From the NCBI GenBank assembly GCA_958009085.1, contig OY253690.1:1-64000 (forward strand): a stretch of 64,000 nucleotides of DNA. The letters run 5' to 3'. The DNA is from Protoeuglena noctilucae. Taxonomy: Eukaryota. Made by a program: the position numbers and the translations under genes. A model generated the notes under the pieces. The model did not search any database and was not told where the DNA came from. It saw only the letters and a program-made list of their open reading frames with translations. Positions 5,901 to 42,080 of the stretch are shown in pieces (the stretch's first letter is position 1; each line of letters opens with the position of its first letter).

Positions 5901-7543
5901 AGCGCTGCGCTGCCAACAGCCACCCTCCCCAACCCCTCCACCCACACCTGCCCCACCTGGTGGTCTCCCGATCGAACCCCACCAAGTAACCCTTTTCACC
6001 CTCCCCTCCCCGCAGCCCCCCGCTCCCCACGAGGACCCCCGCCGCCCCCCCACGGCAGCGGAAGTGATGCGAGCGGTGTGCATTGCTCATGGCTGGGTGA
6101 ACGGGAGCGGGCTGCCCGACGAGACGAGGGTGAGTGCCAAGTGCTATGTGTTGACTATGTGAGCTTAGTGGAGTGTACATATGGCCAGCTGATGTATACG
6201 CGCGGTGTGCATTGCTCATGGGTGAGCATGTGCATATGGGAGCGGACCAGCTGAGGTATCATGGGTGGGAGCACAAGACATGGATAACATCAAAGTCGTT
6301 TCATGCAATCACAGAGTGGTCGCATGATTCTCAAGGACTATGTAGACGGCCGGCTGCTTTACTTTGAGTGGCCCCCGGGGTCGGTGCGGCCGGCGGAGGC
6401 GGACAGGGTGGTGCCGCCCGCTGTCAAGGTGAGGAGGGATGGGGTGGTGGGGGAGGGGGGTGGGGGGTGATGGTGATGAGTGCAGTGTGGGTGGGAGTAA
6501 GGGGTGGTGCCGCCCGCTGTAAAGGCGTGAGGGGGATGGTGCTTGAGTTGGGGAGATTGAGTCATAGTGATGGTGACGGTGATGGTAGATGACGTTATTG
6601 CATTCATATATTGATACGCTCACTTGCGTCATCATCCCAGGCACGGTGGGCGCGAGACGGGGACGTGAGGGCAAGGGGTGTGGCGATGGCAGAGGAAGGG
6701 GAGGGCGCGACTGAGTCAGTCACTGAGTCAGTCGCTGCGTCAGTCGGGGAGGGGCTGCAGGGGGCGGGGGCGGGGGCGGCGAGGGTGGCGGGCGGGGCTG
6801 GGCCGGCGGCACACGCAGGTGGGTGGGTGTTGGGTGTTGAGTGTGTGCATGTAGCTGGTTGTACGTGTGCCTGGGTCGAGTGTTGTTACTTTCCGGTGGC
6901 TTTTGCAATCATGAATGTGCTTGCTTGCTTTGCTTGCACGCATGGAGGTGTGCTCGCCAGCCCACGTCAGCCCACCCACTCGCTCCCCCTTGATCTCACT
7001 TATCCCCCAGTGTCCGTTCCCGGCGCCGTCCACATGACGGGGGGCATGCACCGCGCACCCAAAGCACCGGCGGTGACTGCGGGCAAAATTCAAAATGCGG
7101 GAAAGGGGGCGGGGGTGGACGCAGAGCTTCGGGCGGAGATGGAGGCGATGGGTATCGAAGCCGCGACGTCCGGGGCGCCGCGGAGGCCGGATTACAAGTT
7201 CAAGAACAAGCAGGCGCGGAGCAAGGGGACAAGGGGGAAGGTGAGCGTCAGTCTGAGGGAGGGAGAGTGACGGGGGTGTCGCTGTTAGGTTTCGCGTCGC
7301 TTTGGCATCGGTTGAGGGTCGCTGAGGATCGCTGCGGCGGACAGAGCGTTCTAGCGACATCACAATGCGCAGTAGAGGATTGACCATTCGCATATTCCGT
7401 GGTTCTGTGTCGGGAGCCAAGTTATGCATCTTAGCGTTCTCCTCGCGCCGCAGGGGGCGTACGGCATCGGGGCGGACGGCGACGCCGAGGGTCTGGGGGT
7501 GACGTACGGGCGCAGGGGAGGGCTCGTGCCCGTGGGCCAATAG
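2989..7543 (+). CDS. LSG1: Large subunit GTPase 1 (circularly permuted YlqF/YawG-family GTPase), multi-exon
   Basis: Spliced motifs LPRRPRWD, LTPFEK|NLEVWRQLWRVLERSDVVVQVVDARDP, LLLNKADLL, GMVGFPNVGKSSTIN, TPGKTKHFQT and LCD|PGLVFP. ATG at 2989; last exon 7454-7543. Confidence 0.93.
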
Positions 7544-8055
7544 GCATCGCGCCAAGAGCAGCGTCGACGTGCAGACGGGGCTTAATTGCGGGCTATTCGA
7601 GGATGATGCGGCCCTGCGCCGTCGCCTGTGCAGTGCTATTGAATACAAATCACCAGCTGCGCAGGCGAATTTCCCCTGGAACGCCGCTGGCAACCGGCGC
7701 GCGGCTGGCATCTGTCGGCGCCAGGTCGGCGCCAGCCAGGAAGCCAGCGCCGGCTCCTCGCGCGGACTCGGCGCCGCGACGCCGTCACACCGTCCGCCGC
7801 TATCGCGTCTGCGTGGCCTCGCGTCGAGAGATCAGGGCTCGCGTCCCCCACCGCTGGCTGAACTGCGTTGCCGGCTGCGTTGCAGAGGCGCCTCGCTCGA
7901 GAGCTGCGGTGCCCCGTGCGGTGACGTAGGGCTTCTCCCGCAGCAGTAGCATGCTCTTGTGAGGCGGGGGCCTCTCTCGTGCGCGTCACTCCAGCCAGAG
8001 GCCCTAGCTAGGGGGCGACGAGCGCCCGGCGGGCGGGCGCGGCTGAGGGAGGGGG

Positions 8056-41300: not shown

Positions 41301-42080
41301 GAGATTGGCTGCCACGCTCATTCCCCTCTCTCTCTCCCTTGTCACTCCCGCAGGTGGCTGTGGATGCTTAGAGGAAATTTCTGCTATGGCTATTGTAACA
41401 AACACGTTCCCCTTTCTCCCCATTCAATCCCGCAGGTGGCTGTGGATGCGCAGAGGGAGCTGCTGTCACTGGCGGCAGACCTGGTGCGTCCGGGGGGGCT
41501 GCTGGTGTATGCGACGTGCAGCATCGAGGCGGGGGAGAACGAGGGGCAAGTGGAGGCGTTCCTGAGAGAGAGGAAGGATTACAGGTGAGGGTGGGAGGGA
41601 GTGGCAGGTGTAGAGGCGTTGTTGAGAGAAAGGAAGGACTACAGGTGAGTAGGGTGGGAAAGTGGGTGGAGGCGTTTTTGAGAGAGAGGAAGGACTACAG
41701 GTGAGGGTTTGCTAGAGTGGCAGGTGTACAGACATGCGTCACGGTGGGGGCCGGCAGCAAGTGGAGCTAGCTGCTAGCGGGAGTGAATGCACAGCCGCAT
41801 CTGAGGCTGCAAACTGCAGAGCACGAGTAGCCATGAGCTTACAAAACGGCATGGTTCTGTCCATGGATGTCAAATGGACAGCCCCCCTGCGCTGACATGA
41901 TCGACGCTCTTCGTCGCACCACCCTCCCCCGCCCGCCCCTGCTCCCCCAGGCTGGAGGGTCCCCGAGAGGGCACGGTCCCCGCGTCCGTGCTGGATGCGC
42001 GGGGCGTGACGATGCAGACGCTGCCGCACGTGCACGGCGTGGACGGGGCGTTTGCGGCCAGGCTGCGACGCGTGCGGTAG
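35352..42080 (+). CDS. rsmB: RsmB/Sun (NOL1/NOP2/Sun) rRNA m5C methyltransferase with a NusB-like domain; transit-peptide-like N-terminus and RGG/WG-rich extension
   Basis: NusB-like [99 protein letters not shown]. The start at 35352 (MLSRALPG...) is tentative. Confidence 0.88.

What the first reader, a model, noticed from the sequence alone, without database searches (positions are those of the whole stretch)
6060..41710. Pervasive exon echoes: introns contain decayed copies of the neighbouring exon end plus its splice site
In all four intron-rich genes, 20-70-nt pieces of an exon terminus, often with the donor or acceptor, recur inside the adjacent intron, sometimes two or three times with increasing decay. 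Examples (exon -> echo): 6070->6201; 6405->6501; 10134->10234; 10612->10725 and 10840; 11151->11278; 11650->11546; 19880->19775; 22356->22469; 22968->23091; 23833->23932; 25595->25445; 26055->25952; 26497->26393; 28247->28130; 31120->31248 and 31382; 38140->38050; 39050->39175; 39578->39696; 40605->40702; 41057->41167; 41433->41350. That density suggests a splice-junction-centred local duplication process that grows introns and creates decoy or alternative splice sites (inference). I do not know a described mechanism that predicts this pattern.
Basis: partly seen in the sequence, partly recalled or inferred. Interest (0 to 1): 0.85.

Follow-up and report, generated by a model that had tools for sequence, protein, structure and literature searches.

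The report
Exon-edge copies inside young algal introns
In several intron-rich genes of a marine green alga, about a third of the splice junctions have a partly decayed copy of the exon edge, splice site included, about 116 bases inside the neighbouring intron, so these probably young introns seem to grow by copying their own borders.

Summary
Short-range direct repeats far exceed inverted repeats and shuffles (133 direct against 17 inverted; shuffles 6-9).

In three modelled genes, 27 of 44 repeat pairs join a real splice junction to a copy in the adjacent intron. Random placement that spares exons gives 15.0±3.0 (0 of 2000 simulations reach 27).

The period is narrow (median 116 nt). Most pairs are not plain tandem duplications. 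The spacer between copies is unique and AT-rich, and arrays begin and end with the exon-derived piece.

Fifteen of 19 echo donors remain strong decoy sites, against 3 of 8 echo acceptors. Using an echo site would cause a premature stop in 26 of 27 cases.

The closest relatives' kinase gene has no introns, so these introns are probably lineage-specific.

My best reading is a local DNA copy-insertion process with later unequal exchange, filtered by selection. A junction-targeted mechanism is not excluded. No RNA evidence could be obtained.

The parts
6056..6224 (+). GTPase (MMR_HSR1) gene: exon end 6056-6095 and echo 6186-6224, 85%, period 130
   Evidence: Pfam hit on the neighbouring exon
6406..6539 (+). 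Same gene: exon end plus donor 6406-6442 and echo 6502-6539, 90%, period 96; 2-nt insertion at the echo junction
10131..10256 (+). Kinase (PKG) exon-terminal piece 10131-10153 and echo 10234-10256, 96%, period 103
10605..10882 (+). PKG exon 5 end plus donor (junction 10673) and two intron copies at 10726 and 10836; three-copy array, period 116; spacers 64% identical
11150..11341 (+). PKG exon 6 end (57 nt) plus 8 nt of a GC-type donor, and echo 11277-11341, 97%; unique 62-nt AT-rich spacer
11532..11689 (+). Echo of acceptor plus PKG exon 7 start (11532-11585) upstream of the real acceptor (exon starts 11653), 91%, period 107; unique 53-nt spacer
19767..19909 (-). Exon end plus donor 19875-19909 and echo 19767-19801, 89%, period 108 (gene modelled only by my own gene finder)
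22343..22484 (-). Gene 4: exon start 22343-22371 and upstream echo 22456-22484, 90%, period 113
22956..23142 (-). Gene 4: acceptor plus exon start and upstream echo, 79%, period 124
23834..23965 (-). Gene 4: exon start and upstream echo, 88%, period 99; the echo lacks the acceptor
24528..24684 (-). Gene 4: exon end plus donor 24647-24684 and echo 24528-24565, 92%, period 119
25438..25691 (-). Gene 4: 90 nt of exon end plus donor and echo, 84%, period 152
25950..26114 (-). Gene 4: exon end plus GC-type donor and echo (two blocks, 89-93%), period 103-121
26369..26544 (-). Gene 4: exon end plus donor plus 32 nt of intron, and echo, 83%, period 104
28131..28308 (-). Gene 4: 57 nt of exon end plus GTGAG and echo, 97%, period 116; unique 54-nt AT-rich spacer
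29945..30167 (-). Gene 4: exon end plus donor and echo in a G/T-rich intron start, 85%, period 150
31114..31434 (-). Gene 4: acceptor plus exon start and two upstream copies; three-copy array, period 129-134; copies 90-94% identical, spacers 73%
31602..31848 (-). Gene 4: exon end plus donor and two downstream copies, period about 113
32228..32396 (-). Gene 4: plain 85-nt tandem duplication (70 nt intron end plus 14 nt exon start), 82%
32531..32749 (-). Gene 4: exon end plus donor and two downstream copies, period 86
37521..37675 (+). RsmB-like methyltransferase gene: exon-internal piece 37521-37554 (53 nt before the donor) and echo 37641-37675, 89%, period 120
38049..38179 (+). RsmB-like gene: echo of CAG plus exon start (38049-38088) upstream of the real acceptor (exon starts 38143), 92.5%, period 91; unique 51-nt spacer
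38298..38423 (+). RsmB-like gene: 60-nt tandem duplication starting 8 nt before the donor, 71%
39061..39213 (+). RsmB-like gene: exon end plus donor and echo, 88%, period 120; echo donor weakened
39573..39771 (+). RsmB-like gene: 75 nt of exon end (SAM-binding motif) plus GTGAG and echo, 86%, period 119; the first G of the echo donor is lost; unique 39-nt spacer
40021..40547 (+). RsmB-like gene, 855-nt intron: older acceptor-side echo of the exon starting at 40503 (40120-40174 against 40493-40547, 73%); two further look-alikes near 40021 and 40245 seen by eye only
40602..40725 (+). RsmB-like gene: exon end and echo, 93%, period 97, with a small deletion before the echo donor
41054..41240 (+). 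RsmB-like gene: exon end plus donor plus G-rich intron start, and echo, 80%, period 112
41321..41456 (+). RsmB-like gene: echo of 29-33 nt of intron end plus 21 nt of exon start, upstream of the real acceptor (exon starts 41436), 83%, period 86
41550..41731 (+). RsmB-like gene: exon end plus donor in three contiguous copies, period 56-58

Best explanation
The echoes are products of a local DNA copying process acting in AT-rich and probably recently gained introns.

Primary event (inferred). A 30-100-nt stretch covering an exon edge and its splice-site core is copied and set down about 40-90 nt deeper in the same intron. This gives exon edge, unique spacer, copy, about 116 nt apart. The topology is what aborted microhomology-mediated end joining produces: one 3' end is extended on the other end's flank, then joined at the tips. 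Fill-in of a long staggered break with filler DNA would give the same layout.

Secondary event (inferred from structure). Unequal exchange or slippage between the two copies makes three-copy arrays whose spacers are alike.

Filter (inferred). Events that interrupt exons are lost. Extra donors downstream of the real donor are harmless if the first donor is chosen. Extra acceptors upstream are harmful and become disabled.

Persistence (weakly supported). Exon-derived copies change more slowly than the spacers, possibly through gene conversion from the exon. That would keep them recognisable for longer.

What is shown: the repeats, their geometry, the unique spacers, the strength of the decoy sites and the intronless orthologues. 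What is inferred: the enzymology, the direction of the event, the use of the first donor and gene conversion.
For: Repeats are real and almost only direct:
- 45 direct against 0 inverted HSPs at 50-200 nt distance.
- 133 direct against 17 inverted, with shuffles at 6-9 direct.

Not plain tandem duplication:
- For five of the best pairs (97, 97, 92.5, 91 and 86% identity) the spacer shows no similarity to the flank that a tandem unit requires (z from -1.2 to 0.2).
- Tandem Repeats Finder reports only 3 of about 30 echo sites as arrays.
- Twenty of 27 junction pairs have a spacer. Mean GC is 0.41 for these spacers and 0.63 for the copies of the same pairs.
- Arrays run copy-spacer-copy-spacer-copy (2.3-2.4 units), with spacers alike at 64-73%. 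That fits exchange between the two copies of a primary pair.

Spacers look like native intron. By eye, those on the donor side are G/T-rich and those on the acceptor side pyrimidine-rich, and none has a source elsewhere in the window.

Junction bias: 27 of 44 pairs span a junction against 15.0±3.0 expected.

Filter:
- Echoes sit at 18 of 41 donors but 9 of 41 acceptors.
- Echo donors are strong in 15 of 19 cases, echo acceptors in 3 of 8.
- Using an echo site adds 60-373 nt and gives a premature stop in 26 of 27 cases.
- Orthologue alignments show the outer sites define the protein.

Young introns: the kinase orthologue is one uninterrupted reading frame in 7 of 10 related loci examined, including the closest.

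Mechanistic precedents read:
- PMC8654963 (passages): templated insertions arise from aborted end joining.
- PMC8355091 (abstract): small tandem duplications arise from fill-in of 3' overhangs.
- PMC1557585 (abstract): downstream pseudo-donors stay silent because the first donor is chosen.
Against: - The junction bias (about 1.8-fold) and the narrow period (mean 116, sd 24) are not predicted by any end-joining model.
- Known polymerase theta events use microhomology close to the break (recalled, not checked here) and give much shorter inserts. Here the copy lies 40-90 nt from its source and is 30-100 nt long.
- In six donor-side pairs the copy stops 5-9 nt past the junction. That is more regular than random breakpoints should be and could point to the splice site itself.
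- I did not test microhomology at breakpoints statistically.
- Echo copies do not drift towards the AT-rich composition of the intron. At codon positions 1 and 2 there are 18 GC-to-AT against 17 AT-to-GC changes. Echo donors are better kept than the overall identity predicts. Both also fit selection for the echoes.
- Seven of 27 junction pairs are plain tandem repeats without a spacer, so more than one process may act.
- The models of gene 4 and of the gene at 18.9-20.9 kb rest only on my own gene finder.
- No RNA or population data were available.
Confidence: 0.5

Rival explanations
1. Ordinary small tandem duplications arise anywhere, and selection removes those that hit exons. With introns of about 120-450 nt, many survivors span a junction by geometry alone. 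Only the GC-rich exon-derived part stays recognisable. No junction-linked process is needed.
For: - The exon-sparing null already gives 15.0 of 44 junction-spanning pairs.
- Seven of 27 junction pairs are contiguous tandem units, and TRF reports three arrays.
- Spacers diverge faster than copies (64-73% against 77-94%).
Against: - Observed 27 against 15.0±3.0; 0 of 2000 simulations reach 27, and the maximum was 25.
- The youngest pairs (97%) have spacers with no trace of homology. Decay from a tandem unit predicts the opposite.
- Arrays always begin and end with the exon-derived piece.
- Only one intron-only pair is outside low-complexity DNA or arrays, against about 17 expected (the sorting of the eight pairs is mine).
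Confidence: 0.22
2. A mechanism aimed at splice junctions makes the copies. Candidates are breaks or template switches tied to the sharp GC-rich to AT-rich boundary, to co-transcriptional splicing or to R-loops. Introns in newly invaded genes would then grow from their borders inward.
For: - Junction enrichment.
- In six donor-side pairs the copy ends 5-9 nt after the junction, including both 97% pairs.
- Narrow period, median 116.
- About a third of 82 junctions carry an echo.
- By eye, several copies start at a GT inside the exon.
Against: - Intron-side extents range from 1 to 143 nt overall.
- Some echoes are exon-internal pieces (10131, 37521).
- There is no association with G-runs or G-quadruplex motifs at exon ends (p 0.6-1).
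- I know of no described enzyme that would do this.
- Acceptor-side copies carry 3-33 nt of intron, so a free-exon RNA intermediate is excluded.
Confidence: 0.18
3. The echoes are kept by selection as functional elements, for example decoy sites for regulated unproductive splicing or U1-binding enhancers.
For: - Fifteen of 19 echo donors stay as strong as real donors.
- Echo copies change more slowly than spacers and do not drift to AT.
- Exon-echo differences concentrate at third codon positions: 24/21/51.
Against: - They occur in unrelated housekeeping genes: a GTPase, a kinase and an rRNA methyltransferase.
- Use would give a premature stop in 26 of 27 cases.
- Acceptor echoes are mostly weak or lost: 5 of 8.
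- Several donor echoes carry disabling changes exactly at the site (39692, 39181, 41166).
- The third-position excess is expected from synonymous change in the real exon.
- Four of 23 echoes have in-frame stops.
Confidence: 0.07
4. Assembly artefact: the copies were created by mis-assembly or by collapsing haplotypes.
For: None found. I could not lay reads.
Against: - The copies are diverged (71-97%), carry indels and sit in unique spacers.
- Two marine metagenome runs of another study hold 0.89 and 0.81 of the sampled 31-mers of 22001-32000. This shows the stretch exists elsewhere, not each echo.
Confidence: 0.03

Closest known systems
Human F7 intron 7 minisatellite (37-bp VNTR whose first unit spans the exon 7-intron boundary); PMC1557585, abstract read
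   Same: The exon end and donor are repeated downstream in the intron. The pseudo-donors are intact yet silent because the most upstream donor is chosen. This explains why donor-side echoes are tolerated.
   Different: F7 is a single locus with contiguous identical 37-bp units. Here about a third of 82 junctions in three genes are affected, the spacing is about 116 nt, most pairs have a unique non-repeated spacer, and acceptor-side copies also occur.
Intron gain by tandem duplication of an exon segment holding an AG|GT proto-splice site (Rogers model); PMC2891723 passages read; PMC4974935 seen in a search listing only
   Same: Local duplication of coding sequence ends up as intron, and duplicated splice signals are involved.
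   Different: That model makes the intron out of the duplicate. The intron start echoes the downstream exon, and the intron end echoes the upstream exon. Here the order is the reverse, and the copies already carry the intron's own donor or acceptor core. They therefore arose after the intron existed.
Templated insertions from aborted polymerase-theta end joining (PMC8654963, passages read), and small tandem duplications from Pol alpha-primase fill-in of 3' overhangs (PMC8355091, abstract read)
   Same: A direct copy of sequence flanking a break is inserted at the break. Either route gives the copy-spacer-copy topology, or a duplication with filler.
   Different: The copies here are longer and lie further from their source than the events I recall as usual. 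The junction bias and the 116-nt period are unexplained. Enzyme dependence cannot be tested here.
Introner elements and BOC1 introns of Micromonas and other Mamiellophyceae (PMC3879977, passages read)
   Same: A marine green picoalga context, introns at novel positions in otherwise intron-poor genomes, and AT-rich introns with a sharp GC drop at the splice site.
   Different: Introners are multi-copy families, whereas the introns here share no sequence with each other in the window. BOC1 introns are under 75 nt, whereas these are 116-855 nt. The passages I read mention no copies of exon edges.
Internal gene duplications within eukaryotic genes
   Same: Small intragenic duplications that often include exon-intron boundaries.
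   Different: As far as I recall these are scattered tandem events across genomes. They are not a dense, period-constrained pattern with unique spacers in a few genes.

Membership tests
Boundary-spanning minisatellite / plain tandem duplication | Head-to-tail units alike over their whole length, ending after a whole number of units | tested here: not met
   Met at a minority of sites: 7 of 27 junction pairs have no spacer and TRF finds 3 arrays. Not met for the majority. The spacers of five of the best pairs show no similarity to the expected flank (z -1.2 to 0.2), and arrays are 2.3-2.4 units that start and end with the exon-derived piece.
Boundary-spanning minisatellite / plain tandem duplication | The first unit spans the exon-intron boundary, so the splice site is repeated | tested here: met
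   Twenty-seven of 44 pairs span a modelled junction. Echo donors keep GT or GC in 18 of 19 cases.
Intron created by tandem duplication of an exon segment (Rogers model) | The intron start echoes the downstream exon start and the intron end echoes the upstream exon end; intron length equals duplication length | tested here: not met
   In PKG intron 6 the order is upstream-exon echo first and downstream-exon echo second. Both carry the intron's own splice cores, and the intron (446 nt) is far longer than either unit.
Introner / transposon-derived introns | Introns belong to a multi-copy sequence family | tested here: not met
   Spacers have no non-low-complexity match elsewhere in the window. 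Long-range self-BLAST gives only low-complexity hits, internal repeats of the giant ORF and one partial gene duplicate. This covers 64 kb only; the genome is not held.
Introner / transposon-derived introns | Terminal inverted repeats and short fixed-length target-site duplications | tested here: not met
   No inverted repeats at 50-1000 nt distance. The duplicated pieces vary from 23 to about 100 nt.
Polymerase-theta templated insertion / synthesis-dependent MMEJ | The inserted stretch is a copy of sequence flanking the break, in direct orientation, with the intervening flank kept | tested here: met
   Copy-spacer-copy layout with a unique spacer.
Polymerase-theta templated insertion / synthesis-dependent MMEJ | Microhomology at the junctions; inserts usually short and templated close to the break | tested here: inconclusive
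   GT or GGTG-like motifs at several copy starts and spacer ends were seen by eye only. Copies of 30-100 nt placed 40-90 nt away exceed the sizes I recall for such events.
Polymerase-theta templated insertion / synthesis-dependent MMEJ | Dependence on POLQ | not testable with these tools
   Needs genetics in the organism.
BOC1-type introns of Mamiellophyceae | Short (under 75 nt) and AT-rich (under 43% GC), as defined in PMC3879977 | tested here: not met
   Modelled introns are 116-855 nt. Only the composition fits: spacer GC is 0.41.

The most novel reading that the evidence does not exclude
A mutational process tied to the splice junction itself copies the exon edge and its splice site into the intron. 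The trigger could be the junction's sharp composition boundary or co-transcriptional splicing. The spacing is fixed at about 116 nt. Introns that recently invaded formerly intronless genes would then lengthen from their borders inward and keep generating decoy splice sites. This would be a self-propelled route of intron growth that has not been described.
Probability: 0.18. Interest if true: 0.85.

Novelty: new variant of a known kind. Interest (0 to 1): 0.6.

Why it matters
How introns arise and grow is a long-standing open question, and clear footprints of recent events are rare. Here the genes' closest relatives lack the kinase introns altogether, yet the window's genes carry many introns. 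A quarter to two-fifths of that intron length (my rough sum of the listed periods) can be traced to copies of the introns' own borders.

If the pattern holds genome-wide, this alga offers three things:
- A natural system in which intron growth, the birth of decoy splice sites and their silencing can be dated copy by copy.
- A test of whether the first-donor rule, shown experimentally for one human gene, holds in a green alga.
- A warning for annotation. Echo sites score like real splice sites, and my own gene finder was misled by one at 11549-11581.

Tried and rejected
- **RNA evidence.** They are not evidence of anything.
- **Whole genome.** It is not held.
- **G-quadruplex or G-run trigger.** Exon ends with and without echoes do not differ. 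Donors average 2.94 against 2.83 G-runs (p=0.63), the G4-motif Fisher test gives p=0.71, and acceptors give p=0.8-1. Rejected.
- **Spacers as mobile elements or templated from nearby.** There are no matches outside low-complexity DNA. Rejected for this window.
- **Spacers as decayed tandem partners.** Rejected for five of the best pairs.
- **Echoes decaying towards intron composition.** Not seen: 18 against 17 changes at codon positions 1 and 2. My hand estimate against a 2:1 expectation gives one-sided p of about 0.04, which is only suggestive.
- **RNA intermediates.** A free 5' exon is excluded because the copies carry intron bases, and lariat cDNA is excluded because they carry exon sequence.
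- **First versions of my gene finder.** Trained on the giant ORF, they failed. The retrained version reproduces the two homology-based models it was trained on. It missed one GTPase exon (6288-6428).
- **Synteny with relatives' loci.** Only two weak hits, at 15.3-15.5 kb. Intron status of the other genes' orthologues therefore could not be checked.
- **Rfam.** No family in the window.
- **Earlier findings of this scan.** None.
- **Literature.** Searches returned no description of this pattern. The library omits most subscription journals.
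Full report
**What the window is.** It begins with 42 copies of CTAACC, a telomere-type repeat, so it is a chromosome end. It is GC-rich (0.60-0.72) apart from blocks at 10-12, 22-32 and 37-41 kb (0.48-0.56). In those blocks GC-rich exons alternate with AT-rich introns. 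The best protein matches are green algae. Two marine metagenome runs of another study hold 0.89 and 0.81 of the sampled words of 22-32 kb.

**Genes.** Five intron-rich genes carry echoes.
- A GTPase with an MMR_HSR1 domain at about 3.5-7.3 kb on the plus strand.
- A cGMP-dependent protein kinase (PKG) at 8.8-12.6 kb on the plus strand. It has eight exons and an open 642-residue model supported by relatives.
- A gene at 18.9-20.9 kb on the minus strand, modelled only by my gene finder.
- A large gene of 25-27 exons at 21.9-32.8 kb on the minus strand. It has no Pfam match on single exons and is also modelled only by my gene finder.
- An RsmB-like rRNA methyltransferase at 37.1-42.1 kb on the plus strand, with NusB, ferredoxin-like and methyltransferase domains.

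Splice signals in the PKG and RsmB-like genes are uniform: G|GTGAGTGG-like donors, and C-rich tracts ending in CAG. An ORF of at least 3,612 codons without introns fills 53.2-64 kb.

- Direct repeats at 50-200 nt distance number 45, against 0 inverted.
- A tiled sensitive search gives 133 direct and 17 inverted HSPs, while three composition-preserving shuffles give 6-9 and 1-4.
- Forty-two of the 48 non-redundant pairs with period 80-160 lie in 5-46 kb, and 3 lie in 46-64 kb.
- Forty-two control loci from other picoeukaryotes (306 kb) hold 52 such pairs. In the four loci I printed these were microsatellites and coding repeats.

**Where the copies lie.** I printed every pair in gene orientation. 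Nearly always one copy is a real exon edge with its donor or acceptor, and the other lies in the adjacent intron. With exon models for three genes, the 44 pairs divide as follows:
- 27 span a junction and have the partner in the intron.
- 7 join an exon-terminal piece to the intron.
- 8 are intron-intron. I judged seven of these to be low-complexity or part of junction arrays.
- 2 are exon-exon.

Twenty-five of 82 junctions are covered by a copy. With the five near misses added by hand, echoes sit at 18 of 41 donors and 9 of 41 acceptors.

I built a null that places the same pairs at random and requires at least one copy to be intronic. It gives 15.0±3.0 junction-spanning pairs (maximum 25 in 2000 runs) and 17.2±3.2 intron-intron pairs (P=0.0025 for 8 or fewer). 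Geometry and selection therefore explain about half of the junction bias, but not all of it.

**Anatomy.** The period is narrow: mean 116, sd 24, median 116, for 24 pairs up to 200 nt. It is close to the shortest modelled introns, 116-131 nt. I cannot explain this.

Most pairs are not tandem duplications.
- In five of the best pairs (97, 97, 92.5, 91 and 86%) the 39-62-nt spacer shows no similarity to the flank that a tandem unit would require (z -1.2 to 0.2).
- TRF reports only three arrays.
- Spacers are AT-rich (GC 0.41 against 0.63 for the copies) and have no source in the window.
- The three-copy arrays examined for this (10605-10882 and 31114-31434) run copy-spacer-copy-spacer-copy, with spacers 64-73% alike.

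This is the form expected if a primary copy-spacer-copy pair later expands by unequal exchange between its two copies. Plain tandem duplications also occur: 32228-32396 with an 85-nt unit, and 38298-38423 with a 60-nt unit.

In six donor-side pairs, among them both 97% pairs, the copy ends 5-9 nt past the junction, just after the donor core. In other pairs it runs 12-143 nt into the intron. Acceptor-side copies carry 3-33 nt of intron end.

**How the copies evolve.**
- Exon-echo differences fall 24/21/51 on codon positions 1/2/3, with 56 synonymous and 39 non-synonymous. This fits random change in the echo combined with synonymous change in the exon.
- At positions 1 and 2, where the exon is constrained, the echo shows 18 GC-to-AT and 17 AT-to-GC changes. 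Echo GC is 0.659 against 0.672 for the exon part. The echoes are therefore not sliding towards the AT-rich state of the intron.
- In arrays, echo-echo identity (77-92%) equals exon-echo identity, while spacers are 64-73% alike.

These points suggest gene conversion from the exon, constraint or youth. I cannot tell which.

**Decoy sites.** I scored echo sites with matrices built from all 41 modelled donors and acceptors.
- Fifteen of 19 echo donors reach the 10th percentile of real donors, against 3.6% of 856 intronic GT sites.
- Only 3 of 8 echo acceptors do so, and two have lost the AG.
- Using an echo site would add 60-373 nt and bring a premature stop in 26 of 27 cases.
- Relatives' proteins align across the outer sites without insertion.

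The donor-acceptor asymmetry fits the rule shown for the human F7 intron 7 minisatellite. There, downstream pseudo-donors are functional but silent because the first donor is taken (PMC1557585, abstract).

**Age of the introns.** The PKG orthologue is one uninterrupted tblastn match in 7 of 10 related metagenome loci examined. These include the closest, L001 (GC 0.75, 89% identical to the window in the kinase exon). One other locus has introns at different positions, and two show two pieces. The window's PKG introns are therefore most simply lineage-specific gains. I could not check the other genes.

**Mechanism.** The layout of copy, unique native-looking spacer and copy matches a templated insertion. 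During end joining one 3' end is extended on the other end's flank from an internal pairing site, is released, and is then joined at the tips (PMC8654963, passages). A long staggered break filled in and joined with filler would give the same layout (PMC8355091, abstract).

I favour the first route. By eye, spacer composition matches its place in the intron: G/T-rich after donors and pyrimidine-rich before acceptors.

Neither route explains the junction bias, the donor-core boundary or the 116-nt period. A link to G-quadruplex motifs was tested and rejected. RNA intermediates are excluded because the copies carry both exon and intron bases.

**Comparison with what is known.** The pattern shares features with several described phenomena:
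- boundary-spanning minisatellites (F7);
- internal gene duplications (recalled);
- intron gain by exon duplication (PMC2891723), whose predicted order of echoes is the reverse of what is seen;
- AT-rich or invasive introns of Mamiellophyceae (PMC3879977), which differ in length or are repeat families.

My searches returned no report of dense, period-constrained junction echoes with unique spacers. I file it as a new variant of a known kind, local intragenic duplication.

**Limits.**
- One 64-kb subtelomeric window.
- Two gene models rest on my own gene finder.
- No RNA, read-level or population data.
- Several structural statements (spacer composition, GT at copy starts) rest on reading alignments by eye.

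Noticed in passing
window 1-243: Forty-two copies of CTAACC (the complement of TTAGGG-type telomere repeats). The window starts at a chromosome end, so the echo-rich genes are subtelomeric.
   Followed up: partly
window 45082-45628: Dispersed partial copy of the 3' part of the RsmB-like gene. 40541-40622 (93%), 41564-41618 (91%) and 41860-42172 (87%) are joined with the stretches between them missing. It carries its own pair of donor echoes, 94 nt apart.
   Followed up: partly
window 53164-63999, minus strand: One open reading frame of at least 3,612 codons without introns, GC3 0.85, running off the window end. It has internal repeats of about 390-420 nt. Its function was not examined.
   Followed up: no
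window 8813-12637 compared with loci L001-L012: The kinase gene has seven introns here but is a single uninterrupted frame in 7 of 10 related marine loci examined, whose GC ranges from 0.44 to 0.75.
   Followed up: yes
modelled donors of the three genes, e.g. 11207, and 26060 on the minus strand: Seven of 41 modelled introns start with GC instead of GT, an unusually high share. Two of them are copied as GC in their echoes. Most of the models are unverified.
   Followed up: partly
window 9317-9493: C-rich 63-nt tandem repeat (2.4-2.8 units, built from an 8-nt CCCCTCAC motif) directly upstream of the acceptor of PKG exon 3. It amounts to an expanded polypyrimidine tract.
   Followed up: no
window 49361-49825: GC-rich tandem array with nested periods of 11, 21, 33 and 136 nt, outside the intron-rich genes.
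   Followed up: no
window 11549-11581: The acceptor echo and a downstream GT could form an in-frame 33-nt mini-exon. My gene finder chose it at a lower intron penalty. Whether it is ever spliced in is unknown.
   Followed up: no
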